Shown here piece after piece: positions 3,347-45,941 of a stretch of 64,000 nucleotides of DNA (the stretch's first letter is position 1; every line of letters begins with the position of its first letter). The position numbers were made by a program, and so were the translations under genes. The stretch is from Escherichia phage vB_EcoM-Ro157lw: sequence record MH051335.1; one strand, written 5' to 3'. The notes under the pieces are model-generated. The model did not search any database, was not told where the DNA came from, and was given only the letters and a program-made list of their open reading frames with translations.

Positions 3347-5722
3347 ATGAAAATTCTTGGCATAAAACTCTGGGAGAAGACGCAACCAGAAGCCGAACCA
3401 GCGGAGATGCCGCCAGGCGACCCATTGGCACCGTTTGAACGCCTTGAAAGGCGCGGCAGCGGTCAACGCTGGGAAAAGACTGAAAGCAATCGACCGACCT
3501 TTAAAACGGTTGATGACTTCCCTTTATATGAGCCTGATATTAATGGCGATGGTGTTGCAATCATAAAAGGTCGTTCAGTCGATTCCGCAACAGTATCCAA
3601 AAAGGTTATGGATAATGCCTTAAAGAACATCAGTTCAGAAGGGCAAGTCAACCCATACACAGTACCTATTCAACTTCAAAACTGGTATTTGTCACAGTCA
3701 TTCATCGGCTATCAAGCTTGCGCAATTATAGCGCAGCACTGGCTGGTGAACAAGGCTTGTTCCATGGTAGGCCGCGATGCGGTCCGTAAAGGCTGGGAAG
3801 TTAAATCCAGTTCTGAGTCAGAATTGTCAGTACAAGCCAGCGAACGCCTAAAGCAAATTGATAAAGAATTTAATATCAAAGAGCACTTAGTTGAAGCCGA
3901 ACGATTCAAAAATATTTTTGGTATCCGCGTCATCATATTTGATGTGCGTAGCGATGACCCAGAATATTACAGCAAGCCTTTTAACATTGATGGTGTGACA
4001 AAGGGGTCTTATAAGGGAATCATTCAGGTTGACCCTTATTGGATGATGCCATTTTTGACGTCTGAAAACACCGCCGACCCTGCATCACAGCACTTCTATG
4101 ATCCAGAATACTGGGTGATCAGTGGACAACGTTATCATCGAAGTCACCTCATCATCTTGCGCAATGATGAGCCAGCTGATATTCTCAAGCCAACTTATAT
4201 TTACGGCGGCATTCCTCTGACTCAGCAGATTTATGAACGCATCTATGCCGCTGAACGTACCGCTAACGAAGCGCCATTGCTGGCGATGTCCAAGCGTACA
4301 ACCACGCTGCGGACCGACGTTGACAAGGCTATTGCCAATGAGCGGTCTTTTGCAGAACGTCTGATGATGTGGATCAAGTACCGCGACAACTATGCAGTCA
4401 AAGTGCTTGGCCAAAAAGAAGAGATGGACCAGTTTGACATCAACTTGTCAGACTTCGACAGCATCATCATGAACCAGTACCAGCTTGTGGCCGCAATCGC
4501 AAAAGTTCCGTCGACCAAACTGCTTGGGACTTCGCCAAAAGGCTTTAACGCCACTGGTGAATTCGAGATGGTCAGCTATCACGAAGAGTTGGAAACGTGC
4601 CAGCAGCATGACCTGACAAAAATTCTCGACCGCCATTACAAAATCCTTCTCAAATCAGAAGGGGTGGATGTCGATGTTAAGGTTGCATGGGAACCAGTTG
4701 GCTCACTTACTGCTACTCAACTTGCAGAAATCAATGATAAGCGAGCCAACACTGGCAAAACTCTTATTGATGCTGGCGTCATTTCTCCTGATGAAGAGCG
4801 CGACCGCATCAAAGACGACAAAAACAGCGGCTACAACCGTCTGCCGGAAGACGCAGCAGAAGAAACCCCAGGGATGTCTCCAGAGAATATGGCATTGCTT
4901 GGCAAGTCTGCTGGTGAAGTCCTGCAAGGTAAGGCCGATATTGAACAGGCGAAAGCTGATGTCGTTAAGATGGGCGGCCAGTTCTATAGCGAAACAGGTA
5001 TTATGCCAGAGGGTGCCGCGCGTGGTGAGTTGGCGGAAAACCCTGACAAGGCGCCTGTCGAAATCAACATGGACGATACCGATGATGAATCAAGCCATCA
5101 GGTTGATGTCCTAACGCAGTTGAAAGAAGGGCTGGAGGGTATTGCGGATTACTACCTGAAAGAAGGTCAGGATGTGGATTTTGACCCTCAAAAAGATTCA
5201 CGGTCGGTGCAACCGTCTACCCTTCCAAGCGTTAAAGGACACGTCGTCAACTTACGCCACAACGTGGGTAAAATGGACGCAGCATCATTACCTAAGATGA
5301 AGTTGCACGGAATGATTCTTGGCATTGAGAATCCGCGAAACAGCATTCGTAGAGGAAACAGCCTTGACGGTGAATGGGCCGTGAAGATGCCGCACCACTA
5401 CGGATTCATCAAGGGCACCAAGGGCGCAGACGGTGATGAAGTCGACTGCTTTGTGGGTCCAAATCTGAAGTCGCCGAAAGTCTTTATCGTGAACCAAAAC
5501 GATAACTACTCTGGCGAGTTTGATGAACACAAGTGTATGCTTGGATTCGATTCAGCAGAAGAAGCGAAAGAAGCTTATCAAGCATCATTTGGTAACGGTT
5601 GGAACGGATTCGACTCAATCCACGAATTAGATGTGAACTCATTCAAGGAGTGGTTGAAGGGTGATTGCTCTCAAGCATACGGAGCACTCAATAATCCTAC
5701 TAATTCACCGAAGCAAGGTTGA
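3347..5722 (+). CDS. portal protein with C-terminal inorganic-pyrophosphatase-like extension
   Basis: About 790 aa immediately after the terminase; RBS AGGTGG before ATG 3347; C-terminal 130 aa carry the DGDEVDC motif matching the family I pyrophosphatase signature. Confidence 0.75.
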   Translation: MKILGIKLWEKTQPEAEPAEMPPGDPLAPFERLERRGSGQRWEKTESNRPTFKTVDDFPLYEPDINGDGVAIIKGRSVDSATVSKKVMDNALKNISSEGQVNPYTVPIQLQNWYLSQSFIGYQACAIIAQHWLVNKACSMVGRDAVRKGWEVKSSSESELSVQASERLKQIDKEFNIKEHLVEAERFKNIFGIRVIIFDVRSDDPEYYSKPFNIDGVTKGSYKGIIQVDPYWMMPFLTSENTADPASQHFYDPEYWVISGQRYHRSHLIILRNDEPADILKPTYIYGGIPLTQQIYERIYAAERTANEAPLLAMSKRTTTLRTDVDKAIANERSFAERLMMWIKYRDNYAVKVLGQKEEMDQFDINLSDFDSIIMNQYQLVAAIAKVPSTKLLGTSPKGFNATGEFEMVSYHEELETCQQHDLTKILDRHYKILLKSEGVDVDVKVAWEPVGSLTATQLAEINDKRANTGKTLIDAGVISPDEERDRIKDDKNSGYNRLPEDAAEETPGMSPENMALLGKSAGEVLQGKADIEQAKADVVKMGGQFYSETGIMPEGAARGELAENPDKAPVEINMDDTDDESSHQVDVLTQLKEGLEGIADYYLKEGQDVDFDPQKDSRSVQPSTLPSVKGHVVNLRHNVGKMDAASLPKMKLHGMILGIENPRNSIRRGNSLDGEWAVKMPHHYGFIKGTKGADGDEVDCFVGPNLKSPKVFIVNQNDNYSGEFDEHKCMLGFDSAEEAKEAYQASFGNGWNGFDSIHELDVNSFKEWLKGDCSQAYGALNNPTNSPKQG

Positions 5723-30593: not shown

Positions 30594-31571
30594 TTAAAAA
30601 TACTCCATATCGGTGATATCACGGAAGCACTTATACAAGGCAGAGCGCGGCACGTCAACTATGCCAAAGTTAAAGAATTTATATGTCAGATACTTGTTTC
30701 GATAATTCTCGCGATTCTCCCAAAGCATTTTTCTCTCTGCCATAGGCATTGAACCAGCGGAGACGCGGAAGGGAATCATTTCACCTTTCTCATCAACATA
30801 TTTTGGATTGACAACCACAAATGATCCAAGGTATCCTTTTGCAACTAAGCCTTCAGCCTCTTTCGAACGCTTAGTGCGACCCAGCTCATCAATGAATGCT
30901 TCGTTGTTGTTCTCCATCATCTCAACGAAGTCTATGATCAGTCCTTCTTCATCGGTCCACGGCTTGTCCTTCCACACATCACGTGACTTTGGCGTCGCGC
31001 GGCCATGCTTGTATTTGCCCGTCCAAGACTTGCCATACAAGCCTTCATAGCCAAGCTGGTCTGCTTCGATTTGCATCGCCGCGTACTGTTCCATATTTTC
31101 GATGTTTCGATATTCGAGAGCGCGAAGGAATGGGCGTCGACCATGGTTGATGAGGTGCTGATTGACTTCAGCAACTCTAGCGCGATAGTTTGCATAACGT
31201 TTTTCAAAAGGCAAATCAGGGTCGCTGAAGTCATCAAACACCCACCATGTAAAGTTAGTGATTGCATCAGTGTTCATGCATGCAGTATAGGCCTGTTGCA
31301 TGACGTTCTTGTCGTTCGGATTGCCGTCAATTAGCTCTCCATCAAGGCCGTGAATCAATTCACCCAAAAAGAGGAACTCTTTCTTGATTTGAATGTTGCG
31401 CAACGCCATGCCGGACGTGCCCATTGGCAAATTGTCATATGCCATCGCGCGTATGCCATCGACCTTGAATGACAGTCCGCAAGGCAGCGGCACATCTTCG
31501 CCGCGCTCGATGATTTGTTTACGCTGGCACCCTTTCATTGGTTTTAATGCTTTGATTTCTCCTGCCATCAC
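30594..31571 (-). CDS. ATP-dependent DNA ligase
   Basis: Adenylation motif I KVDGIRA (KxDGxR) with Lys nucleophile; size about 325 aa. Confidence 0.8.
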   Translation of the reverse strand: MMAGEIKALKPMKGCQRKQIIERGEDVPLPCGLSFKVDGIRAMAYDNLPMGTSGMALRNIQIKKEFLFLGELIHGLDGELIDGNPNDKNVMQQAYTACMNTDAITNFTWWVFDDFSDPDLPFEKRYANYRARVAEVNQHLINHGRRPFLRALEYRNIENMEQYAAMQIEADQLGYEGLYGKSWTGKYKHGRATPKSRDVWKDKPWTDEEGLIIDFVEMMENNNEAFIDELGRTKRSKEAEGLVAKGYLGSFVVVNPKYVDEKGEMIPFRVSAGSMPMAERKMLWENRENYRNKYLTYKFFNFGIVDVPRSALYKCFRDITDMEYF

Positions 31572-32161
31572 TCAAACTCCTTATTCATCACTTGTTCCAT
31601 TGCATAGGCGTAAGCCTGATCAGTCGATTTGATAAACGTTCCGTTGTACATCACTCCTTTACGGTCCTTGATGTCTTCATAGGCGGCTTGAGCGCAATCA
31701 GACAGTCGAAGTCCATAATCATGCGCTACGCCGGAAAGATAATCGACTGCGGCCATGATGGTGACATCAATATCCATACTCTGATTTTTAGCAATGGCGT
31801 CACCAAGCCGTCCGAGAGTCTTTGCCAAGCGAAGGATAAACGAGTGAGGGTGGGCACCTTTGTCAGCGCAACCGCCGCCGTTGATGTCTTCGATTTTTGC
31901 ACCATTTTGCGCGGCAAGAATAGTTAACACAACAAGGCAATCGCCGATGTCATCCTTGATTGCGGCTTGTAAATCACAGATGGCCTGCTCTGTATATCCG
32001 ATTTCAGGGTCAAAGAACACAAGGTCATGTAATTGATCAATGTGGTCGGTCAACTCCCCAAACTCGCTAATAAGCTTCGGGTATTGGTCCTTAAGGTCGC
32101 AGCCTTGGATGATGTTACGGTCAGAAGCCCACTGGCGAATGTTTGCATAAATCTGGTTCAT
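31568..32161 (-). CDS. mazG: MazG-like nucleoside triphosphate pyrophosphohydrolase
   Basis: EFGEL and DDIGDCLVVL motifs typical of all-alpha NTP pyrophosphohydrolases. Confidence 0.6.
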   Translation of the reverse strand: MNQIYANIRQWASDRNIIQGCDLKDQYPKLISEFGELTDHIDQLHDLVFFDPEIGYTEQAICDLQAAIKDDIGDCLVVLTILAAQNGAKIEDINGGGCADKGAHPHSFILRLAKTLGRLGDAIAKNQSMDIDVTIMAAVDYLSGVAHDYGLRLSDCAQAAYEDIKDRKGVMYNGTFIKSTDQAYAYAMEQVMNKEFE

Positions 32162-36069: not shown

Positions 36070-36488
36070 GACAATTCCTCTAAATACTTGATGATGTGAT
36101 GGATGGACCCGCTCGCGGCGACCATATCCAAAATCTCACCCTTAGTATATTCTTTTAATCGCAATGAAGGGTGAACTAAATAATAAGCCTTTTCAGAATC
36201 TACCTTCAGCAGCACAAATGACGAGAACTTCCAATCATTCCAAGAAGTCAAAAAGCTTTGTTGGCCTTTCTCAAATGCACTTTTAAAAGGAAGAGTGGTG
36301 GCCCTTGCAGGCCACGATTCAAAAAACTTCATTTCAAGCCAAAAGCCGCGCCCTTTCCGGTTGGTGCCGATTACATCCGGCACACCATCACCCGTCATGG
36401 ATTCGATTCTTTGAAGCTTCAGTACTGATTCTGAATGCTTCTTCAAAGGAACGAAAATGTATTTTTGTTCACGGTTATTTGTTGCCAT
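36066..36488 (-). CDS. VRR-NUC domain nuclease (PD-(D/E)xK fold)
   Basis: GVPDVIG...GFWLEMK matches the D...E-x-K catalytic pattern; adjacent to SNF2 helicase. Confidence 0.55.
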   Translation of the reverse strand: MATNNREQKYIFVPLKKHSESVLKLQRIESMTGDGVPDVIGTNRKGRGFWLEMKFFESWPARATTLPFKSAFEKGQQSFLTSWNDWKFSSFVLLKVDSEKAYYLVHPSLRLKEYTKGEILDMVAASGSIHHIIKYLEELS

Positions 36489-37131
36489 CTGGATACACCT
36501 GTTTGATCACGTCGACTATAAACATGTCAATGCCTTCAAGCTTTCGACCTTTCATCAGGAAGAATGCACCGTTCCCGACGTTCTCTGCAATGTATTTCCC
36601 GTATTTCTGGAACTTCTCTGGACGAATCCTGAAGCGCATTGGCGAGTCGGTCGAGTCGTCCTTGCACATAAGGTCGATGAACTGAGTTTCAAGCTTGTTT
36701 CCATACTGATCAAACTCTGCGTAGCGGCCATCGGCCTGAAGACCCTTTTTAAGCTTGCCGTGCTTTGTATAAATGCCGCGCTCAAGACGTTTACGGATGC
36801 GTGTTGCTTCGTTCTCGTCAGCCAGCACTTTCTTGGTCAACTTGCCGATTACTATTGCACGCTCGTCATCGCCGACTTCCTTCATCTGACGTATTGAAGC
36901 ACCGGAAGTAACGCCAATCAGATAGGGGTCATTATACGCCCAGCCAAACTTGGTGTGCATCTCTGTAAGGTCGCCGTATTTGACTTCAGCATTGGCCAAT
37001 GCATCCTTTTGTTTTTGCGTTAAGGTTCCGGCTTCACGTGCTTCGATGTACTTCATCGCTTTCACCATTCCGTACCCTTTAGCGTTCATGATGCCGCCAA
37101 TTAGCTTTCCGTTAGCGATTGGCCAATGCAT
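36475..37131 (-). CDS. dnaE: DNA polymerase III alpha-like protein, C-terminal fragment (separated from the N-terminal ORF by a frameshifting 127-bp duplication)
   Basis: First 45 residues duplicate the last 45 residues of the upstream ORF 37112-39499; removing one copy of the duplication fuses both ORFs in frame. Confidence 0.6.
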   Translation of the reverse strand: MHWPIANGKLIGGIMNAKGYGMVKAMKYIEAREAGTLTQKQKDALANAEVKYGDLTEMHTKFGWAYNDPYLIGVTSGASIRQMKEVGDDERAIVIGKLTKKVLADENEATRIRKRLERGIYTKHGKLKKGLQADGRYAEFDQYGNKLETQFIDLMCKDDSTDSPMRFRIRPEKFQKYGKYIAENVGNGAFFLMKGRKLEGIDMFIVDVIKQVYPDGNK

Positions 37132-37246
37132 CCTTTTGTTTTTGCGTTAAGGTTCCGGCTTCACGTGCTTCGATGTACTTCATCGCTTTCACCATTCCGT
37201 ACCCTTTAGCGTTCATGATGCCGCCAATTAGCTTTCCGTTAGCGAT
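36991..37246. repeat. perfect tandem duplication, unit 127 bp (two copies, 36991-37117 and 37118-37244, identity extends 2 nt further)
   Basis: seq[i] equals seq[i+127] across the whole span, read directly; lies inside the polymerase coding region. Confidence 0.9.
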
Positions 37247-39499
37247 GGTCCAGTTCATTGAAGAGTGATCAGGGTCGATTGGCACATAATCCACGCCTTC
37301 CTTTGCAAGTTCACGTAATATCGCAATCGTCTGGTCTTCGTCCTTGGCAGCGCGTAAGCAAGCAGCGGCAAATTCCAACGGATAGTGTCGTTTAAGCCAC
37401 AAGGTCCAGTAGGTCACGACCGCGTATGATACGGAGTGTGACTTGTTAAATCCCCATGACCCGAACGTCGCCATTGCTTGCCAAAGCTTTCTTGCATCAG
37501 CTTCCGGTACGCCGTTATTTATTGCGCCTGCAACGAAGTCTTCGCCAAGCTTGTTAAAGTATTCCTCACCCTTACGGCCTGACATCGCCTTACGTACAGC
37601 GGATGTCTTCGCCCAGTCAAATGAACCAATCTCTTTAACCACGGCCATGATTTGCTCTTGGTAAAGAAACACGCCGTAAGTCTCTTTTAAGTACGGCTCA
37701 AGCTGCGGCACGTCGTACTCAATCGGCGCACGTCCTGCCGCGCGTTCGATGTATTTCTGGGCCATACCGGATGACAACGGGCCAGGTCGGCCAAGTGCTG
37801 TCAGGTTATCGATTTTGTTAAAGTTATCAACGTGCACAAAGTTGGTTACTGAGCGTACAGCGTCGCCTTCGAACTGGAAGATTCCTGACATCTTATTTTC
37901 GTTAAGGATGTCAAGGACGCTTTGATCATTGAGCTTGATTCCGTACAGTGTTTCAGCATCTATCACGCCAGTATCAGAAATGATGCCGAGGGTACGAAGG
38001 CCCAATGCATCAAGCTTCAAAAGGTTAAGGTATTCGCTGTCAGGCTTATCAATTTGTGCAATCCCTTCCGCCGTTACCGTACAGTAATCAGAGATTGGAT
38101 CATTACACACGATGATTCCCGCTGCGTGAACGCCAGTGTGGGAAGGGTGAATTTCAAGGTCACCCATGCATCGCGCGGCATCAGGATATTTAGCCACAAA
38201 CTCTTGGCCCGTGGTCGTTGTTGCAAAGGTGTCCTCCAGGCCGTGGCCATAACGGGCGTCACCGGATGAGTATTCAAGCAATGCGTTTTTAATGTTGGCC
38301 GTTTCGTGATATCCAATGTTGAATTTCTTACCAACCTGAGCCATTACTGAGTTGGCCTTAAGCGTGTTGATGTTGCCAAGCTTTGCAACGTTCATTTCGC
38401 CGTATTTTTCTTTAAGGTAATCAAACACCATATAGCGTTTGGTATCCTCAAAGTCAATATCAATATCAGGAAGGTCTGCGCGGCTTACGTCAATGAATCG
38501 GGCAAACAGTAGCTTATACGGGATTGGGTCAACTTCCGTGATGCCGAGGCAATAACAAACCAGTGAACCAGCCGATGAGCCGCGAGCGGGTCCGACGAGC
38601 ATTTTTGTTTTTGCGAATCGTACAAGGTCCGCTACCACCAGAAAGTATGAGTCGAAATCTTTCAGCTGAATCTGGTGAATCTCTTCGTTGAATCGGTCCT
38701 CATATTCCTGAGTCCATTCTTTGATGTGGCCTGCCTTAAGGCGGTACTCCATCCCCTCACGAGCAAGCTTTACCATGTCACCAGCAAGGTGGATAATCGG
38801 TGCCTTGCGCAGCTTCAGGTCAAGTCCCACGATTCCGTTTGCAATGTCAACTGCATTGGCCGTTGCTTGATTCAACTCATCTTCGGTCAATATTCCTTTA
38901 AGCTGTTTGCGCAAGTCTTCCGCGTCAACGATACAGTGCGGCTTGACCGTGTCGCGCACTTCCCAAGCATAAGCAAAGTCAACGTGCTCAGGTGAAGGCA
39001 TGTGGTTGTATCCGGTTAAAACCAGCGGCCTTCCGTTGCTGCGGTGAGCCAATACCTGGCGCTTGGCCAAAAGGAACGATGATGGGTTGACGTCTATATA
39101 ATCGTAGTCCTCTGGCCGCAGCAACTCCACGGCCCCGCCACAGAATTTAACGACGCCATCGAGCGCCCCGAACTCTGCACGGGTCAGTCCGCCGCGCTGT
39201 GTTGCAAGCGTGGTCGCGTTGTAAAAGGATTTCAGGTCAAGCGCCAATATCCAAGCCTTCGGTTTGAATCCCTTTTTCGGGTCCGCATCAGGGTCGATGA
39301 TTGGAATTTCCATGCCGAACATAGGCTTAATATCATTTTTCTGGCACTCCTTTTCCCATCGAACGTGACCCCATGTATTGTTATCAACTAATGCCGCGAC
39401 TTCGCAGCCCAACTCTTTGAGCCGTGCTATAATTTCAGGATGCCGTCCATATACTTCTTTGAACGTGTAACCGCTGCGAACTCTCAATTGTGGAAACAT
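37112..39499 (-). CDS. dnaE: DNA polymerase III alpha-like replicative polymerase (PHP plus polymerase core), N-terminal 795 aa
   Basis: N-terminal PHP-like domain and large polymerase core; TAATG overlap with the upstream exonuclease gene. Confidence 0.75.
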   Translation of the reverse strand: MFPQLRVRSGYTFKEVYGRHPEIIARLKELGCEVAALVDNNTWGHVRWEKECQKNDIKPMFGMEIPIIDPDADPKKGFKPKAWILALDLKSFYNATTLATQRGGLTRAEFGALDGVVKFCGGAVELLRPEDYDYIDVNPSSFLLAKRQVLAHRSNGRPLVLTGYNHMPSPEHVDFAYAWEVRDTVKPHCIVDAEDLRKQLKGILTEDELNQATANAVDIANGIVGLDLKLRKAPIIHLAGDMVKLAREGMEYRLKAGHIKEWTQEYEDRFNEEIHQIQLKDFDSYFLVVADLVRFAKTKMLVGPARGSSAGSLVCYCLGITEVDPIPYKLLFARFIDVSRADLPDIDIDFEDTKRYMVFDYLKEKYGEMNVAKLGNINTLKANSVMAQVGKKFNIGYHETANIKNALLEYSSGDARYGHGLEDTFATTTTGQEFVAKYPDAARCMGDLEIHPSHTGVHAAGIIVCNDPISDYCTVTAEGIAQIDKPDSEYLNLLKLDALGLRTLGIISDTGVIDAETLYGIKLNDQSVLDILNENKMSGIFQFEGDAVRSVTNFVHVDNFNKIDNLTALGRPGPLSSGMAQKYIERAAGRAPIEYDVPQLEPYLKETYGVFLYQEQIMAVVKEIGSFDWAKTSAVRKAMSGRKGEEYFNKLGEDFVAGAINNGVPEADARKLWQAMATFGSWGFNKSHSVSYAVVTYWTLWLKRHYPLEFAAACLRAAKDEDQTIAILRELAKEGVDYVPIDPDHSSMNWTIANGKLIGGIMNAKGYGMVKAMKYIEAREAGTLTQKQKDALANR

Positions 39500-40041: not shown

Positions 40042-40094
40042 ATTGGCCTCCTACAAAAGGCCGCCCATTAGGACGGCCACAGATTCAAGATTCG

Positions 40095-40646
40095 TTATGC
40101 AGTGTACGGAGTACCATCTTGATTCAACCGCACGATGAACTTAAGGTCGACGCCGATGATTTCACGCGTATCAAAGATCACATAGTTGTAACGACGCTGA
40201 CCAGCAATATTTGGGTTGGTGTGAGAGTCAGTTACAACTTCCTGCGCAACCTGAATGCCTTCTTCTTTAAAGAACTTGCGCCATTCAGCGAGTTCAGCGG
40301 CAGTCACGTGCATACCAAGATGGCTAACCTGATTGTCGTGTGCATCAATATATTCGATGTTTTCGTTAATCCAGTTGCGACCTTTCGTGTAGTCAAGAAT
40401 TTCAAGTTCAAGAGGCTTACCAGCGCCGCCATCGGTGCCGTTGCCAGCTTGATAGTTGAAGCGCAAGTCAGCTTCGTTGGTGCAATCGCCGCGCTGACCT
40501 TTAAAGTCATCAGCTTCAAATACGCGACCAGTAGCAACAACATGATCATGGAACCATTCTGTCAGGCCGATTTTAGCCAGAAAATCCTGTGCGCGCTGAG
40601 CATCTGGAATTGACAGGGCGATTTGTTCAATTTTAAAGTGTGGCAT
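40095..40646 (-). CDS. VOC-family (glyoxalase/bleomycin-resistance/dioxygenase fold) protein
   Basis: Two beta-alpha-beta modules with IEQIALSIPD and SHLGMHV metal-site-like patterns; motif-level only. Confidence 0.4.
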   Translation of the reverse strand: MPHFKIEQIALSIPDAQRAQDFLAKIGLTEWFHDHVVATGRVFEADDFKGQRGDCTNEADLRFNYQAGNGTDGGAGKPLELEILDYTKGRNWINENIEYIDAHDNQVSHLGMHVTAAELAEWRKFFKEEGIQVAQEVVTDSHTNPNIAGQRRYNYVIFDTREIIGVDLKFIVRLNQDGTPYTA

Positions 40647-40840: not shown

Positions 40841-41524
40841 TTATTTCCCAAATGGAATATCAGTACCAGACATAAAGCGCCATGCGCCCGTAATTAAGAT
40901 ATGGCGAATGAAGTCAGCAATTACTTGCGGCTCAGTCTCCAATCCGTTCATCAATGCCTTTTTCTGGTATTCAGCGGCATACTCAGGAGTCCAGCCGCGA
41001 GTCGCGCAAACAGCATCTTCAATCTGTTTGGACATGCCAGTACCACGTAGCTTGTTAGGACTAATAGAGAATACCGTGATCCCGTATTTAGGCGTAAGCT
41101 CGTGAGCCATCTGCTTGCTAATCATAAGCGCAGCAGCCTTGGATGCATTATAACACAAGCTGGACGTCATAGGAATATGCGCAGCATTAGAAACGATATT
41201 GATCACAAAACCTTTGTTGTCGATAAGACTTTTCAGCGCGGCCTGAGTCGTGTTGACGAAAGAGAAGGCGTTGGTGTGCATAACGCGATTGAACTCTTCG
41301 TAGTTAACATCTTCGAACCAGTTGTTGGAGTTGACGCCAGCGCAGTTGATCAAGCCTTCTACGTCGTATTGAGAGAGAAGCTCTTTCATCTGTTTCGCGT
41401 TACGGATGTCATAGCCGTTCTCCAAATCAATACCGACAACTTCATGACCGTAAGCGCCAAGGGTGTCAAAAATGGATTTACCAAGACCGGAATTGCAGCC
41501 AGTTACAACAATTACTTTTTTCAT
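40841..41524 (-). CDS. short-chain dehydrogenase/reductase (SDR)
   Basis: Cofactor motif VTGCNSGLGK (TGxxxGxG) and catalytic YNASK (YxxxK). Confidence 0.7.
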   Translation of the reverse strand: MKKVIVVTGCNSGLGKSIFDTLGAYGHEVVGIDLENGYDIRNAKQMKELLSQYDVEGLINCAGVNSNNWFEDVNYEEFNRVMHTNAFSFVNTTQAALKSLIDNKGFVINIVSNAAHIPMTSSLCYNASKAAALMISKQMAHELTPKYGITVFSISPNKLRGTGMSKQIEDAVCATRGWTPEYAAEYQKKALMNGLETEPQVIADFIRHILITGAWRFMSGTDIPFGK

Positions 41525-41589
41525 TTATTTATCCTTTTTGGACTTCGTTTCGATGAGATAAATATAACTCATCGAAACGCACAAGTAAA

Positions 41590-42462
41590 CTATTTATTGA
41601 AATTAATATTATGGGTGTTAACAAGACGTTCACACATGGCGCTGTAAACACCATCATCGTGTATAGAGTCTTCGTGCTTCAGGCCGCTGATTGCGAAGCG
41701 TGTAAGCTTGACAATCTTAAGCTCGAACAGATGCCACATGTGGTAGTCTTCCGGCGTTTTCAACGTCACGCCATTAGGGAAAAGCACTTGCATAACCTGA
41801 CCTACCATCACAGCGTTATCGCCATAGACAGCGTTGCGCTCACGGAAGGTTGCTGCCATTGCATCAAGAATATCGGCGGCAGTTGCCGGAGATTGTTCAA
41901 CTTCCACAGCCTTAGTCTCTTCTTGCCCTGTTGCGCTTGGATCAATTGCTAATTGTTGCACCACTTCACCTGCCTTGCAAAGATTAAATGTAAAAGCGAT
42001 TTTATTTTGAGCAACGGAATTATAATACAATGCTTCATCTTGCATCCGCGCGAGTACGTCTTGTCGGTCGTCGAATACATTGATGATTCGATAATCGCCG
42101 TGCCGCAATGCGTGCGATAGCCATGCAGATTTCATAATAGTTGATGGACGTTTGTCGCCATAGTCTCTCATCTTGATTGTAAATTCATCAAAAGGAAAAA
42201 CATTATCCAGACGTTCAAAAGTCACTTGTCTGTATTTTTCTGGCCTTGCAGTCCAATATTCAACCGCCTCACCGCGAAGAGATGCCGACTCTACTGCTGA
42301 TGCAATGTGAGGATAGAACTGATCATAACCAATACCGCTGTGATAGTCATCATAGTCTGACGACGGACCTGCCACCTTTATGCGGTCTAAGCGCCAACGG
42401 TCATCAAACAGCGTTCCGTCAAGGTCGAATACATTTAAGATTTCGCTGTTTTTAATGCTCAT
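41590..42462 (-). CDS. HAD-family phosphatase domain fused to a C-terminal domain of unknown function
   Basis: Motif I FDLDGTL (DxDGT), later NVFDDRQD; C-terminal 140 aa alpha-helical with acidic patches. Confidence 0.5.
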   Translation of the reverse strand: MSIKNSEILNVFDLDGTLFDDRWRLDRIKVAGPSSDYDDYHSGIGYDQFYPHIASAVESASLRGEAVEYWTARPEKYRQVTFERLDNVFPFDEFTIKMRDYGDKRPSTIMKSAWLSHALRHGDYRIINVFDDRQDVLARMQDEALYYNSVAQNKIAFTFNLCKAGEVVQQLAIDPSATGQEETKAVEVEQSPATAADILDAMAATFRERNAVYGDNAVMVGQVMQVLFPNGVTLKTPEDYHMWHLFELKIVKLTRFAISGLKHEDSIHDDGVYSAMCERLVNTHNINFNK

Positions 42463-43289
42463 CCTTTTGATACTCCATCTTTAGCAACTGGATTGTTGGT
42501 GATTGGCATCGCACTCCAAAACTGGATGCGCAACTCTTCTTGCTGTGCCGTGGTATCCATCCAATCACGATACCAAGGGCAATGGGCTTTGCCATGACGA
42601 GGAAACGCGCATTTACCCATACCGATGCATTGCGGCTGTAATAATGGATTTGCCCACGGGTGCACCTTGAGGACTTCCGCAACCATTGCGCGGAATACTT
42701 CTTGATACTCGCCTTGAGTGCGCGTGCACAAGCGGTTTGACGCCATCTGCTGCAGCGTGCGCAAGTTGAACTTTGCCATGATATGCGTTTGCATATTAGA
42801 AGGCAACACGGCACGTGCATCTTGAATCTCTGCGCCAGCCGCGCGAAGCTCTTGATACAAAGCATCGATAGTCGCCATCGCATCATCCCACTTCTCTGCT
42901 AAGTATTGCTTTTGAAGTAAAGATTGGTGCTCTTCATCAGTCCCAAACGCTTCACATTGATCAATCAACTCTGGATTTTGGTGTGAGAATGCCTTCGGAC
43001 GAATCGCATCAAATGCAGACGACTCCTGAGCGCGGCTGGTACGTTCTTGATATGCGCCTGTGCGTGTGCGCACCATCTGATGGGTCATGTTCTTTGAAAC
43101 ATCGGTGATGTCAAAGATATAGTCCACAAAGTCAAAAGGCGACTTGATTGTATCAAGCATGTAGCGCCAGTGCTCTTGCTTCTCTGATTCCGTCATCTCA
43201 GAGACAGGCTTGCCAGTCATGCGCGTGTTCTTTGTTTCCAGCAAAAGGTCAAGTGCATCTTGGGTGTATCGAATTAATTTAACTTTCAT
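42459..43289 (-). CDS. thyX: flavin-dependent thymidylate synthase ThyX-like, with Cys-rich C-terminal extension
   Basis: RTRTGAYQERTSR aligns with ThyX motif RHRxxxYxQxSxR; VLPSNMQTH...PW matches the conserved ThyX C-terminal block; extra CIGMGKCAFPRHGKAHCPW tail. Confidence 0.65.
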   Translation of the reverse strand: MKVKLIRYTQDALDLLLETKNTRMTGKPVSEMTESEKQEHWRYMLDTIKSPFDFVDYIFDITDVSKNMTHQMVRTRTGAYQERTSRAQESSAFDAIRPKAFSHQNPELIDQCEAFGTDEEHQSLLQKQYLAEKWDDAMATIDALYQELRAAGAEIQDARAVLPSNMQTHIMAKFNLRTLQQMASNRLCTRTQGEYQEVFRAMVAEVLKVHPWANPLLQPQCIGMGKCAFPRHGKAHCPWYRDWMDTTAQQEELRIQFWSAMPITNNPVAKDGVSKG

Positions 43290-43302: not shown

Positions 43303-43749
43303 TTAACGGTAGTTCACTAGTTGCTGATCACCAGAGAAGGTGCAATGATAAACAAATTGTGCATTATAAAGCAACTGAAAACTTTTCTTTGGTTCACTAT
43401 TAGCACTCATCGATGTGAATACTTCTGCACCGGAACGGTTTTCACCGATTAAGTTGACAAAGCCGCCAGTTGTGCGAGGTTGAACGAAAGTGAAACGTTG
43501 CATCCACGGAGTCCGGTTGACACCTTTTCCGGTGAATCCTTGAATCTGAATATTCAGACCTTCTTGCTCATTCACACCGATGTAAGTGGTAATCTTCGCA
43601 CCAGTCGTTGCTGCGGTCTTACCGTCCATCGCTTCGCAATCATAAACAGCGATTGAATCGGAAGTACGGATGGCAGCTTCAGTCGCTTCCATATACATGG
43701 TGCCGAGAATAGCAGTTGCGGCAAGCGCGATTCCAGTGATTCGTTTCAT
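43303..43749 (-). CDS. secreted protein (148 aa) with N-terminal signal peptide
   Basis: MKRITGIALAATAILGTMYMEATEA signal-like N-terminus. Confidence 0.45.
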   Translation of the reverse strand: MKRITGIALAATAILGTMYMEATEAAIRTSDSIAVYDCEAMDGKTAATTGAKITTYIGVNEQEGLNIQIQGFTGKGVNRTPWMQRFTFVQPRTTGGFVNLIGENRSGAEVFTSMSANSEPKKSFQLLYNAQFVYHCTFSGDQQLVNYR

Positions 43750-43814: not shown

Positions 43815-44810
43815 TTATTTATTAGCAATATAAGCAAATTTTTGATAGTTATTTGCTTTGATGAGTTTTTCAACTTCAACAAGATCATGAGCGACGTCAT
43901 CAAGCAAAATGTTTCGCCAGGTAGCAAATCGACCGACACTAAACACGTTCAAATCCATAGTCAGCTGCAGGAGTAAGGCGTGTCGCAAGTCTTTCGGAAT
44001 GTCGACAATCTTTCCATATTTCTGGTCGACCTTTTCAACTTCTTCAAGAGCGATGTCACTCCATGAGAGGCCAAATGCCGTCAGCACCTCGTCGACTTCT
44101 GCGCGCAGCTTGATGTCACGGTAACGAGTGATGCCGCCAGCGGCTTCAACTGCAGCTTCACTTACGCTGACCAAAGGAATTGTTTCAATGATAAGCGTGT
44201 CACCAGTAATTGATGCGCGGTAAGTTCTGACGGAGTAGTCAGGGAAGTAAATTGTCTGATACAAATCACACTTACGTTTAATCTTAAAGCGGTAAACACG
44301 AATGTTTGCTTTATCAAATGAGAAATCAAGCTTTTGATCAATCCCAGCCAGCTTCATCATGACTGGCAGCGGCGACGTGTTGATGATTGGCGTCTCGCTA
44401 TAGCCGCAAAGAGTATCAACCGGAGTATTAAAGAATATGCGGTCACCCAGTTTGTCGACAAGCTGATCATAAAAGTCATCAGGCGCAATATAACGCGTTG
44501 CAGTCTTAAGATTCATGATTGAACGGCTGCCAAACTGATTGGTGACCTTCATGGAATACATATTGGCAAGGTTGATTGGGCAATGGTCGTGGTAGTAGTT
44601 GCCGCGAAAATACACAGCCTTGTCAACTGTCACTGCCTTAAAAGGGATTCCGGTAATACGGCTTACTTCTTCGCCACGGAAGCGTAGCAGCGCCTTGTGC
44701 TGTTGCGCTCGCTCCCCTGCTTCGTACACAACAGAGTTCGGGAAGTGACACGCTGTGATAAGTCCTGCCAATCCGCCGCCGATAATCATTACAGGTTGTT
44801 TCATGTTCAT
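43815..44810 (-). CDS. FAD/NAD(P)-binding Rossmann-fold oxidoreductase
   Basis: N-terminal dinucleotide-binding motif VMIIGGGLAGL; family not assignable by eye. Confidence 0.5.
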   Translation of the reverse strand: MNMKQPVMIIGGGLAGLITACHFPNSVVYEAGERAQQHKALLRFRGEEVSRITGIPFKAVTVDKAVYFRGNYYHDHCPINLANMYSMKVTNQFGSRSIMNLKTATRYIAPDDFYDQLVDKLGDRIFFNTPVDTLCGYSETPIINTSPLPVMMKLAGIDQKLDFSFDKANIRVYRFKIKRKCDLYQTIYFPDYSVRTYRASITGDTLIIETIPLVSVSEAAVEAAGGITRYRDIKLRAEVDEVLTAFGLSWSDIALEEVEKVDQKYGKIVDIPKDLRHALLLQLTMDLNVFSVGRFATWRNILLDDVAHDLVEVEKLIKANNYQKFAYIANK

Positions 44811-44942
44811 TTGTCCTTTGTGGGTGATATGAGAAGTATAATAGCTAAATTATTTTACAGCAACAAGTCATTTTATTTAGTACAGATGAAAAAAGACCCA
44901 CAACAAGTGTGGGTCAATTACCGCTGCATAACCGTCCTAAGG

Positions 44943-45782
44943 TTATTCCGCTTGATCACCGTCTTCGGCATCTTCGTTGGATTCAACATCGACAAACTCG
45001 ATGTGGCCCATCTCTTCCAGCTTGCTCAGGTAGGAGCGAACGGAAGCGCCAAACAGTTGATCTTTAACTTTTTCGCCCAGCTCATCGATAGACTGCGCCA
45101 CGCCAACTTCGCCTTCTTTGATCGCCGCCAGAACGCGTCCACGGGTGGAATGCTCTTGCGGCTGGCTCAGGCCATTGCCAGTGTAGATGAAGTGGGTTGC
45201 TTTTGCGCGACGCTGACCGTTTGCCTTTTTAGCAGCCTTACGTTCTGCGATGGCTTTGCGACGTTCTTCAGCTTCTTTCTTACGCTGTTCTTTCTGCTTT
45301 TCTGCAGCTTCTTTAGCCGCAATCTTAGCAGCTTCACGCTCTGCCTTGCGTTTCGCTTTAGCTTCTTCTTTGGCCTTCTCTTTTTCGGCCTTCGCTGCAG
45401 CACGGGCTTGATCACGCTCTGCTTTCTTAGCAGCAGCTTGTTCAGCTTTCAGGCGCTTGGCTTCTTCTTTGGCCTTTGCCTTTTCGATTTCTTTTGCTGC
45501 TTTAGCGGCTTCACGCTCTGCTTTCTTAGCAGCTGCTTTTTCTGCACGCTCTTTGGCTTTCTTCGCTGCTTCTTCAGCACGTTTCTGTGCTTTCTCATCA
45601 GCGGCCTGCTTGCGTTTCAGTGCAGCTTCTTCACGCTTGGCTTGTTTTTCCTGCTCACGCTTCTGGCGTTTTTCTTCGGCTTCTTTCTTTTTAGCCAGGC
45701 GTTTTTCTTCAGCCACGCGACGACGTTCTGCTGCAGCTGCTTGTTTTTCTTCTTTAGATAATACTTTGATTGCTTCGGCCAT
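44943..45782 (-). CDS. Lys/Ala/Glu-rich low-complexity protein with small globular C-terminal domain
   Basis: About 200 residues of KxAExxAK-type repeats, then about 80 non-repetitive C-terminal residues. Confidence 0.5.
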   Translation of the reverse strand: MAEAIKVLSKEEKQAAAAERRRVAEEKRLAKKKEAEEKRQKREQEKQAKREEAALKRKQAADEKAQKRAEEAAKKAKERAEKAAAKKAEREAAKAAKEIEKAKAKEEAKRLKAEQAAAKKAERDQARAAAKAEKEKAKEEAKAKRKAEREAAKIAAKEAAEKQKEQRKKEAEERRKAIAERKAAKKANGQRRAKATHFIYTGNGLSQPQEHSTRGRVLAAIKEGEVGVAQSIDELGEKVKDQLFGASVRSYLSKLEEMGHIEFVDVESNEDAEDGDQAE

Positions 45783-45941
45783 ATTCACAGTCCTTAAATA
45801 AATTAGTTTATTTTATATTCCCCGTTTGGGATAACTTAATTATGCCTTCAGTCGCCGCCAGTAGCAACTAAAAACTCTGGCGGCAATGCCACTTTAATTA
45901 AACTGATTTTCAGTTTTATTTTTCGTAAATTTACGTCAACA

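What the first reader, a model, noticed from the sequence alone, without database searches (positions are those of the whole stretch)
41590..42462. HAD-phosphatase domain fused to an uncharacterised helical C-terminal domain
The N-terminus has FDLDGTL and a later DD motif typical of HAD phosphatases and nucleotidases. The C-terminal 140 residues are acidic and helical with E/D-rich patches reminiscent of all-alpha NTP pyrophosphohydrolases. A fusion that could remove phosphates from nucleotides in two steps would be a compact nucleotide-pool editing enzyme.
Basis: inference. Interest (0 to 1): 0.45.

Follow-up and report, generated by a model that had tools for sequence, protein, structure and literature searches.

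The report
Phosphatase fused to ThyX-linked helical domain
This phage gene does join a T4-type phosphatase to a small, very conserved helical domain of unknown function, but that domain shows no sign of being a pyrophosphatase and instead always travels with the phage's flavin-dependent thymidylate synthase gene, in a gene block that might explain unexplained DNA modification in related therapeutic phages.

Summary
The ORF is real: window 41590-42462, minus strand, 290 aa, in a Wifcevirus-type E. coli myophage. Residues 1-173 are a T4-Pnkp-type HAD phosphatase with every catalytic motif invariant. Residues 174-194 are an acidic flexible linker. Residues 195-282 form a confident four-helix module. 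Databases label the family 'polynucleotide kinase', but 0 of 164 fused members has a Walker A motif.

It is far better conserved than the HAD (67% vs 30% identity). Across 75 viral loci it is fused to a HAD in 30, split from an adjacent HAD in 43, and lacks one in 2. In a Rhizobium jumbo phage it is fused to a non-orthologous HAD. It always lies in the block FAD-like protein, ThyX-like, HAD, helical, SDR, VOC.

Pbunaviruses carry the ThyX-fusion core and have hypermodified thymidine of unknown genetic basis. The most likely role is phosphate removal on a pyrimidine deoxynucleotide intermediate linked to ThyX. The biochemistry is untested.

The parts
41590..42462 (-). Whole ORF (290 aa plus stop): the HAD phosphatase / helical-domain fusion
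   Evidence: ORF list; phrog_4889 at E 1e-121; 99.7% identical proteins in Wifcevirus genomes
41944..42462 (-). Residues 1-173: T4-Pnkp-type HAD phosphatase domain. Motif I FDLDGT is at nt 42412-42429 and motif IV DDRQD at nt 42058-42072.
   Evidence: PF25109 at 33.7 bits; profile hits to T4 Pnkp phosphatase 5uj0 and 1ltq and to Pnkp1 4xrp; Foldseek hits to 4xru and 5uj0 at E about 1e-5; invariant D13, D15, R24, T71, R99, K111, D131, D132, R133, D135
41881..41943 (-). Residues 174-194: acidic, low-confidence flexible linker
   Evidence: pLDDT 54-75; the measured segment, residues 166-194, has pI 4.05; linker length across 164 fused homologs ranges from -2 to 205 aa, median 34
41593..41880 (-). 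Residues 195-290: four-helix module (helices 195-213, 216-227, 237-258, 264-280), DUF6378-like. KLTR is at nt 41698-41709 and DSIHD at nt 41656-41670.
   Evidence: AF2 pLDDT 90.9; 1,620 representative relatives; 24 of 56 relatives hit PF19905 below threshold; BFVD neighbours are DUF6378 and Nmad1 proteins; invariant Y213, P229, G231, K252, R255, D265, S266, D269, Y273 in 268 sequences
42459..43289 (-). ThyX-like flavin-dependent thymidylate synthase; its stop overlaps the fusion gene's start by 4 nt
   Evidence: PF02511 at E 1e-29; found upstream of the helical domain in 71 of 75 viral loci
40841..41524 (-). SDR (FabG-like) gene immediately downstream
   Evidence: PF00106 at E 1e-31; immediately downstream in 75 of 75 informative loci; absent from Pbunavirus
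43815..44810 (-). phrog_4828 protein with an N-terminal GxGxxG motif (FAD/NAD-like); first gene of the block
   Evidence: phrog_4828 at E 1e-150, no Pfam hit; homologs in Pbunavirus 14-1 (41% identity) and Rhizobium phage RHph_Y65 (35% identity); present in most of the 80 loci
40095..40646 (-). VOC/glyoxalase-like protein; last gene of the block
   Evidence: Weak PF13669 hit at E 8e-4; conserved position in the viral loci
41546..41579 (-). Perfect 12-bp stem hairpin just after the fusion gene's stop, with no U-tract
   Evidence: RNA fold -22.1 kcal/mol, z-score -5.2, 0 of 200 shuffles as stable
44895..44915 (-). Terminator-like hairpin plus T-run upstream of the block, between the TolA-like gene and phrog_4828
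   Evidence: The total count of such sites in the region is not above chance, so only the position is suggestive.
40059..40078 (-). Terminator-like hairpin (7 of 8 GC pairs) plus T-run 17 nt after the VOC-like gene, before the exonuclease gene
   Evidence: with the same caveat as above

Best explanation
This is a two-module protein of a conserved, phage-borne, ThyX-linked nucleotide-metabolism block.

Module 1 (residues 1-173) is an active Mg2+-dependent phosphomonoesterase of the T4 Pnkp phosphatase type. Asp13 is the nucleophile that forms the aspartyl-phosphate. Asp15 is the acid/base. Thr71, Arg73 and Lys111 bind the phosphate, and Asp131, Asp132 and Asp135 hold the metal.

Module 2 (residues 195-282) is a four-helix DUF6378/Nmad1-like domain tethered by a flexible linker. 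At one end of the bundle it carries an invariant polar cluster: R209, Y213, N216, K252, R255, D265, S266, D269, Y273. I infer that this cluster binds, and possibly acts on, a phosphorylated pyrimidine deoxynucleotide that is the substrate or product of the adjacent ThyX-like flavoenzyme.

The two modules work on the same pathway but not through a composite active site. The helical module is the constant partner of ThyX, and the HAD supplies a phosphate-removal step on that pathway's intermediate. The protein is neither a polynucleotide kinase nor a MazG-type pyrophosphatase.

What is shown: the domain architecture, the catalytic-motif conservation, the fusion/fission pattern, the synteny, and the lack of any kinase or MazG signature. 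What is inferred: phosphatase activity, the nature of the substrate, ligand binding by the helical pocket, and the functional link to ThyX.
For: HAD assignment and catalytic residues. The D15-to-R24 spacing of 9 residues and the R99-to-K111 spacing of 12 residues match T4 Pnkp D167-R176 and R246-K258 in the alignment.

The helical module is the more constrained half: 67% vs 30% identity to the window protein, with nine invariant residues in 268 unique sequences.

Functional coupling of a HAD with the helical module: of 75 viral loci, 30 are fused, 43 are split with a HAD ORF immediately upstream, and 2 have no HAD (example loci L006-L008). In Rhizobium jumbo phage RHph_Y65 the same helical domain (43% identity) is fused to a different HAD family. 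That HAD matches phrog_1238 and Hydrolase_6 and is not detected by this family's HAD HMM at E<=10.

Link to ThyX: 4-nt overlap of the genes; ThyX upstream in 71 of 75 loci; ThyX directly followed by the helical protein, with no HAD, in L010; the ThyX and fusion pair kept in Pbunavirus F8 and 14-1, which lack the SDR and VOC genes; a ThyX, dUTPase and RNR neighbourhood in RHph_Y65.

Independent literature: DUF6378 directly follows ThyX in Faecalibacterium phage FP01 (PMC13432834). A dUTPase-ThyX-Nmad1 block occurs in Asgard wyrdviruses (bioRxiv 10.1101/2021.07.29.453957).

Variable linker (-2 to 205 aa) and low linker pLDDT argue for tethered, independent modules.
Against: No biochemical data exist for any member of the family. 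Nearly all synteny evidence comes from one broad phage supergroup that shares a DnaE-type replication module, so it may partly reflect vertical inheritance and not selection for co-function. The helical pocket is inferred from helix-end positions in an AF2 model without coordinates or a ligand. PNKP-type HADs that have been characterised act on 3'-phosphate ends of nucleic acids, which favours the end-healing rival. Microbacterium phage TinyMiny has the HAD, SDR and helical genes but no annotated ThyX in the cluster. The DUF6378 assignment is below Pfam's gathering score.
Confidence: 0.4

Rival explanations
1. DNA or RNA 3'-end healing enzyme. The HAD removes 3'-phosphates from broken phage or host nucleic acid, as T4 Pnkp does. 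The helical domain replaces the kinase domain as an oligomerisation or nucleic-acid-binding module. The phage's ATP-dependent DNA ligase then seals the healed nicks.
For: The closest characterised relatives are the T4 Pnkp and Pnkp1 phosphatase domains. Residues matching T4's catalytic set are conserved. The phage encodes a DNA ligase at 30594-31571. A T4 endonuclease V-like Pyr_excise gene sits inside the block in L006-L008 and in TinyMiny.
Against: The gene is never next to the ligase; it is translationally coupled to ThyX and followed by an SDR. The helical domain occurs without any HAD directly after ThyX. In unrelated viruses it is paired with ThyX or dUTPase. There is no kinase to complete end healing. 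The invariant K, R, D, D, Y cluster looks like a small-ligand site.
Confidence: 0.2
2. One reading: a two-step nucleotide-pool editor. The helical domain is an all-alpha NTP pyrophosphohydrolase (dNTP to dNMP plus PPi) and the HAD then removes the last phosphate. An example would be eliminating dTTP/dTMP or dUTP, as reported for hmdU-containing Bacillus phages (from my own knowledge of the older literature).
For: The context is nucleotide metabolism. The helical fold carries invariant Asp, Lys and Arg residues that could bind a metal and a triphosphate. Repeated fusion with phosphatases fits consecutive reactions.
Against: No sequence, profile or fold link to MazG, dUTPase-2 or HisE. Only two invariant acidic residues. 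The phage has its own MazG. RHph_Y65 and the Asgard viruses carry a separate dUTPase beside the domain. Destroying dNMPs next to a thymidylate synthase is metabolically odd unless T is being excluded from the DNA.
Confidence: 0.1
3. The helical domain is a non-catalytic adaptor that docks the phosphatase onto the ThyX tetramer or the replisome and binds no ligand of its own.
For: It is small and has no known enzymatic relatives. It has a flexible tether and is always next to ThyX and close to the polymerase genes.
Against: Nine strictly invariant residues, mostly polar or charged, across 268 sequences down to about 35% identity are unusual for a pure docking surface. The domain persists where no HAD exists.
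Confidence: 0.1

Closest known systems
T4 polynucleotide kinase/3'-phosphatase (Pnkp, pseT) and bacterial Pnkp1: phosphatase domain, Pfam PF25109
   Same: Same HAD subfamily and fold. The DxDGT nucleophile motif, the Arg 9 residues after the second Asp, the T/S-x-R motif II, the motif III Lys and the DDR motif IV are all conserved. It is likewise a phosphatase joined to a second domain.
   Different: The partner domain is not the P-loop kinase: 0 of 164 members has a Walker A motif, and the PDB profile aligns only to the phosphatase half of 1ltq. The partner is C-terminal, not N-terminal. The gene context is ThyX and SDR, not an RNA ligase. The database label 'polynucleotide kinase/phosphorylase' is therefore misleading.
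DUF6378 (Pfam PF19905), phage proteins of unknown function
   Same: Full-length alignment to the 81-position model in 24 of 56 close relatives. DUF6378 proteins are the main structural neighbours in BFVD. A DUF6378 gene directly follows ThyX in Faecalibacterium phage FP01.
   Different: Scores of 14-25 bits fall below the 27.1-bit gathering cut-off, and the window domain itself gets no hit. This is a distinct, tightly conserved sister family with its own signature and a habitual HAD partner.
Nmad1 / DUF1599 (nucleotide modification associated domain 1, PF07659)
   Same: A helical phage or virus domain. One BFVD Nmad1 protein is a structural neighbour (E 0.1, probability 0.99). Nmad1 sits in a dUTPase-ThyX-Nmad1 block in Asgard viruses.
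   Different: No sequence-level hit to PF07659. The relationship rests on one weak structural match plus an analogous context.
All-alpha NTP pyrophosphohydrolases (MazG, type II dUTPase, HisE)
   Same: A small all-helical bundle in a nucleotide-metabolism context, with some conserved Asp, Lys and Arg residues.
Class B/C acid phosphatases and NT5C-type HAD nucleotidases
   Same: DDDD-type HAD fold. AphA and e(P4) appear among the Foldseek hits (E 6e-4 to 6e-3). The HAD that partners the helical domain in phage TinyMiny weakly matches NT5C.
   Different: Much weaker similarity than to PNKP-type phosphatases, and those enzymes carry no helical partner domain.

Membership tests
HAD superfamily, PNKP-type phosphatase (PF25109) | Motif I DxDx(T/V), with the nucleophile and the acid/base Asp | tested here: met
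   FDLDGT at residues 12-17; D13 and D15 invariant in 52 homologs
HAD superfamily, PNKP-type phosphatase (PF25109) | Motif II Thr/Ser, motif III Lys, motif IV DD..D | tested here: met
   T71, K111, D131, D132 and D135 are invariant
HAD superfamily, PNKP-type phosphatase (PF25109) | Score above Pfam's gathering threshold, and homology to solved PNKP phosphatase domains | tested here: met
   33.7 bits against a 27.6 cut-off; profile E 5e-7 to 5uj0 and 6e-7 to 4xrp; Foldseek E about 1e-5
HAD superfamily, PNKP-type phosphatase (PF25109) | 3'-phosphomonoesterase activity on nucleic acid ends or 3'-dNMPs | not testable with these tools
   Requires an enzyme assay
Bifunctional polynucleotide kinase (the current database label) | P-loop (Walker A GxxxxGK[ST]) kinase domain | tested here: not met
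   No Walker A in the window protein or in any of 164 fused homologs
Bifunctional polynucleotide kinase (the current database label) | Homology of the non-phosphatase half to the T4 Pnk kinase domain | tested here: not met
   The family profile aligns only to residues 182-296 (the phosphatase half) of 1ltq. The C-terminal profile has no PDB relative.
All-alpha NTP pyrophosphohydrolase superfamily (MazG-like) | Sequence or profile similarity to MazG, MazG-like, dUTPase_2 or PRA-PH families | tested here: not met
   No Pfam or NCBIfam hit at E<=10; only DUF6378 among 56 relatives; hhalign 1.5% and 0.17% against the phage's own MazG family
All-alpha NTP pyrophosphohydrolase superfamily (MazG-like) | Fold match to solved MazG or dUTPase-type bundles | tested here: inconclusive
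All-alpha NTP pyrophosphohydrolase superfamily (MazG-like) | Conserved cluster of four acidic metal ligands (ExxE ... ExxD) | tested here: not met
   Only D265 and D269 are invariant. E247 and E278 are 91% conserved and are replaced in the Pbunavirus orthologs.
DUF6378 (PF19905) | Score at or above Pfam's gathering threshold | tested here: not met
   The window domain gets no hit. Relatives score 14-25 bits against a 27.1 cut-off.
DUF6378 (PF19905) | End-to-end alignment to the model, and structural similarity to members | tested here: met
   Model positions 2-80 of 81 are covered in many relatives, and 24 of 56 relatives hit at E<=0.01. BFVD DUF6378 proteins are neighbours with probability 0.57-0.99.
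Nmad1 / DUF1599 (PF07659) | Sequence match to the family model | tested here: not met
   No PF07659 hit; only one structural neighbour at E 0.1

The most novel reading that the evidence does not exclude
The block phrog_4828 (FAD-like), ThyX-like (with R[T/S/N]R in place of RHR), HAD and helical domain, plus SDR and VOC in Wifcevirus, may be the unidentified biosynthetic pathway for the hypermodified thymidine recently found in Pbunavirus DNA. Yee et al. 2025 (PMC12191111) reported nucleosides of 362 and 390 Da replacing about a quarter of T, and did not identify the genes.

On this reading, Wifceviruses carry a related modification that has not yet been detected, which would explain their unexplained resistance to nearly all restriction systems tested. 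The HAD would remove the terminal phosphate of a sugar-phosphate-derived substituent, or another phospho-intermediate, on the pyrimidine. The helical domain would be the nucleotide-handling partner of the ThyX-like enzyme.

By my own arithmetic, 362 equals dU bearing a reduced C5 chain at C5 (228 - 1 + 135), and 390 equals dU bearing a cyclised C6 sugar (228 - 1 + 163). That would fit a flavin-iminium ThyX-type transfer of an aldose carbon instead of formaldehyde. This is speculation.
Probability: 0.2. Interest if true: 0.85.

Novelty: new variant of a known kind. Interest (0 to 1): 0.5.

Why it matters
Hundreds of phage genomes, including the Pbunaviruses used in Pseudomonas phage therapy, annotate this gene as a 'polynucleotide kinase'. 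It has no kinase domain, so that label should be dropped.

The analysis defines a tightly conserved helical module (Y..KxxR..DSxxD..Y). It is a constant companion of viral ThyX genes and repeatedly recruits phosphatases. That points to an unrecognised step in viral thymidylate or thymidine-derivative metabolism.

Pbunavirus DNA was recently shown to contain hypermodified thymidine with no known biosynthetic genes. Wifceviruses resist restriction without any known protection. This block is therefore a concrete, testable candidate locus for both observations.

Tried and rejected
1. Polynucleotide kinase (the database label): rejected. There is no Walker A motif in 164 fused homologs, and only the phosphatase half aligns to T4 Pnkp.

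3. PDB sequence searches with the single protein and with two profiles found no solved relative of the helical domain.

4. The AFDB50 fold search could not be run because the library is unavailable.

5. HD-domain or di-iron bundle ideas, prompted by H244, H263 and H268: dropped. These histidines are replaced in the Pbunavirus orthologs (H244 and H263) or are only 87% conserved across the family (H268).

6. C-terminal extensions of some standalone helical proteins were checked against neighbouring genes for read-through fusions; none matched.

7. The PHROG relatives of the helical domain (phrog_474 and phrog_1167) are labelled 'phosphofructokinase'. I treat this as annotation noise, since PFK is an alpha/beta fold, and did not build on it.

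8. Literature searches for DUF6378, Nmad1, DUF1599 and Pbunavirus modification genes found no functional study. The 2013 comparative-genomics paper that named the Nmad domains could not be retrieved.

9. The phrog_4828 protein gave no PDB or Pfam relative.

Full report
**Observation.** The window is a Wifcevirus-type Escherichia myophage, 98% identical over 8 kb to phage FEC19. At 41590-42462 on the minus strand there is a 290-aa ORF. Its ATG overlaps the stop codon of the upstream ThyX gene by 4 nt and is preceded by GGAG. FDLDGT occupies residues 12-17 and DDRQD residues 131-135. In an alignment of 52 homologs down to about 35% identity, D13, D15, D21, R24, T71, R99, K111, D131, D132, R133 and D135 are invariant. 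The protein matches Pfam HAD_PNKP above threshold (33.7 vs 27.6 bits) and PHROG 4889 end to end (E 1e-121). tblastn finds it in 371 phage records. The ORF and the fusion are therefore real.

AlphaFold2 (pLDDT 89.6) puts beta strands up to residue 173, a low-confidence linker at 174-194, and four helices at 195-213, 216-227, 237-258 and 264-280. The acidic patch is the linker: the measured segment 166-194 has pI 4.05, against pI 5.9 for the helical module.

**The N-terminal half.** A family profile finds the phosphatase domains of T4 Pnkp (5uj0 at E 5e-7, and 1ltq) and of Pnkp1 (4xrp). Foldseek on the model returns the same proteins plus class B/C acid phosphatases. The spacing of the catalytic residues follows T4 Pnkp in that alignment: D15 to R24 is 9 residues, R99 to K111 is 12, and motif IV is DDR. 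That these positions are essential in T4 Pnkp is from my memory of the Shuman laboratory's mutagenesis, not something tested here. I conclude with fairly high confidence that this half is an active Asp-nucleophile phosphomonoesterase. Its substrate is not established.

**Not a kinase.** GenBank, RefSeq and PHROGs call the protein 'polynucleotide kinase/phosphorylase' or '3'-phosphatase, 5'-polynucleotide kinase'. None of 164 fused family members has a Walker A motif. Only the phosphatase half of T4 Pnkp aligns. The label is wrong.

**The C-terminal half.** It has no Pfam, NCBIfam or PDB sequence relative, yet it is the better conserved half: 67% vs 30% mean identity to the window protein. A full HMMER scan of 1.8 billion representatives finds 1,620 relatives. 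Among the 232 family proteins fetched (the 150 listed there plus those), 68 contain this domain without a HAD. Twenty-four of 56 such relatives hit Pfam DUF6378 over the whole model but below the gathering score (14-25 vs 27.1 bits).

Foldseek against viral predicted structures returns the protein's own family, then DUF6378 proteins and one Nmad1/DUF1599 protein. Across 268 unique sequences, Y213, G231, K252, R255 and D265 are invariant and P229, S266, D269 and Y273 are essentially invariant (266-267 of 268). R209, N216 and H263 are nearly so. These residues lie at the helix ends that meet at one pole of an up-down bundle. I read this as a ligand or catalytic pocket. That reading is an inference, because no model coordinates were available.

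**Fusion, fission and partner swapping.** In 80 IMG/VR loci encoding relatives of the helical domain, the same block recurs: phrog_4828 protein, ThyX, HAD, helical, SDR, VOC-like, DnaQ-type exonuclease, PolIII-alpha. Of 75 informative loci, 30 have the fusion, 43 have a separate HAD ORF immediately upstream of a separate helical-domain ORF, and 2 have no adjacent HAD. An SDR follows in 75 of 75, and ThyX is upstream in 71 of 75. Individual contigs confirm these arrangements. In L010 the helical protein follows ThyX directly, with no HAD.

Linkers in the fused proteins vary from -2 to 205 aa. In the 207-kb Rhizobium phage RHph_Y65 the same helical domain (43% identity) is fused to a different HAD family. 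That HAD matches phrog_1238 and Hydrolase_6 and is invisible to this family's HAD HMM. The gene lies among an exonuclease, ThyX, dUTPase and RNR. In Microbacterium phage TinyMiny an NT5C-like HAD, an SDR and a helical-domain protein are neighbours. Repeated association with non-orthologous phosphatases is the strongest evidence that the helical module and a phosphatase act in one pathway.

**Link to ThyX.** There are three lines of evidence beyond the synteny above. First, Pbunaviruses F8 and 14-1 keep the phrog_4828 homolog (41% identity), ThyX (49%) and the fusion (32%) but lack the SDR and VOC genes. Second, in an unrelated Faecalibacterium phage a DUF6378 gene directly follows ThyX (PMC13432834). 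Third, in Asgard archaeal wyrdviruses a dUTPase-ThyX-Nmad1 block is described. In the window, terminator-like hairpins with T-runs sit just before phrog_4828 (44915-44895) and just after the VOC-like gene (40078-40059). They bracket the block as a possible operon. The overall number of such sites is not above chance, so only their placement is suggestive.

**Mechanism.** The reading I consider most likely (about 0.4) is this. A PNKP-type phosphatase is tethered to a nucleotide-binding, possibly catalytic, DUF6378-like module, and both serve the pathway of the adjacent ThyX-like flavoenzyme. The HAD removes a phosphate from a pyrimidine deoxynucleotide intermediate. The rivals are:

- 3'-end healing together with the phage ligase (0.2). 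This is favoured by the HAD subfamily and disfavoured by the context.
- A pure docking adaptor (0.1).

**Possible wider significance.** Yee et al. (PMC12191111) showed that Pbunavirus DNA contains hypermodified thymidine replacing about a quarter of T. The nucleosides are 362 and 390 Da. The authors stress that no known modification genes are present. [quoted passage not shown] The ThyX-like enzymes of this block carry R[T/S/N]R instead of the canonical RHR in 68 of 71 cases. This makes the block a candidate modification pathway, in which the HAD would trim a phospho-intermediate. It is circumstantial, and I give it about 0.2.

**Verdict.** The protein belongs to a known but mis-annotated and functionally uncharacterised family, so I class it as a new variant of a known kind. 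Interest is moderate (0.5), mainly because of the conserved ThyX-linked block and its possible link to unexplained phage DNA modification.

Noticed in passing
window 36991-37246 (minus-strand PolIII-alpha gene, ORFs 37112-39499 and 36475-37131): There is a perfect 127-bp tandem duplication (2.0 copies, 100% identity) inside the DnaE-type DNA polymerase gene. Because 127 is not a multiple of 3, it splits the polymerase into 795-aa and 218-aa ORFs, with residues 745-794 encoded twice. All 28 related phage records have a single copy. It could be an assembly artefact or a very recent duplication.
   Followed up: partly
window 42459-43289 (-), and ThyX ORFs in L017-L096: The ThyX-like enzyme of this block has R[T/S/N]R in place of the canonical RHR of the ThyX motif. 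The window reads VRTRTGAYQERTSRA, and 68 of 71 block ThyX proteins show the variant. It matches solved ThyX only weakly (E 9e-4, C-terminal half only). This may be a distinct ThyX subfamily with altered chemistry.
   Followed up: partly
window 43815-44810 (-): The phrog_4828 protein (331 aa) has an N-terminal IIGGGLAGL (GxGxxG) dinucleotide-binding motif but no Pfam or PDB relative. It is conserved at the head of the block in Wifcevirus, Pbunavirus (41% identity) and Rhizobium phage RHph_Y65 (35% identity). It may be an uncharacterised flavoprotein partner of ThyX.
   Followed up: partly
window 40841-41524 (-) and 40095-40646 (-): SDR (FabG-like) and VOC/glyoxalase-like genes follow the helical domain in 75 of 75 viral loci but are absent from Pbunaviruses. 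They could be tailoring enzymes that differ between lineages.
   Followed up: partly
window 41546-41579 (-): A perfect 12-bp stem hairpin (-22.1 kcal/mol, z -5.2) lies between the fusion gene and the SDR gene, with no U-tract. It is not a canonical terminator and may be an RNA processing or stability element.
   Followed up: partly
window 31568-32161 (-) and 30594-31571 (-): A 197-aa MazG-family protein has its MazG domain at residues 28-92 and an uncharacterised C-terminal half. Its 3' end overlaps the start of the adjacent, divergent ATP-dependent DNA ligase gene by 4 nt.
   Followed up: partly
window 43303-43749 (-): A 148-aa protein with a signal-peptide-like N-terminus (MKRITGIALAATAILGT...) lies between phrog_4828 and ThyX. 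It has no family hit and was seen only in the closest Wifcevirus loci (L017-L020).
   Followed up: no
window 44943-45788 (-): A 281-aa protein consists largely of an Ala/Lys/Glu-rich low-complexity stretch (annotated as TolA-like in relatives) upstream of the block. A long antisense ORF (44697-45761, +) is probably an artefact of this biased composition.
   Followed up: no
L006-L008 (genes at 3922-4407) and L014 (1520-2068): A T4 endonuclease V-like Pyr_excise gene is inserted inside or next to the ThyX-HAD-helical block in marine relatives and in Microbacterium phage TinyMiny.
   Followed up: no
PHROG families 474, 1167, 6328, 1485: Standalone helical-domain proteins also match these large PHROG families. 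Two of them are labelled 'phosphofructokinase', a label that looks unfounded for an all-helical domain of about 90 aa.
   Followed up: no
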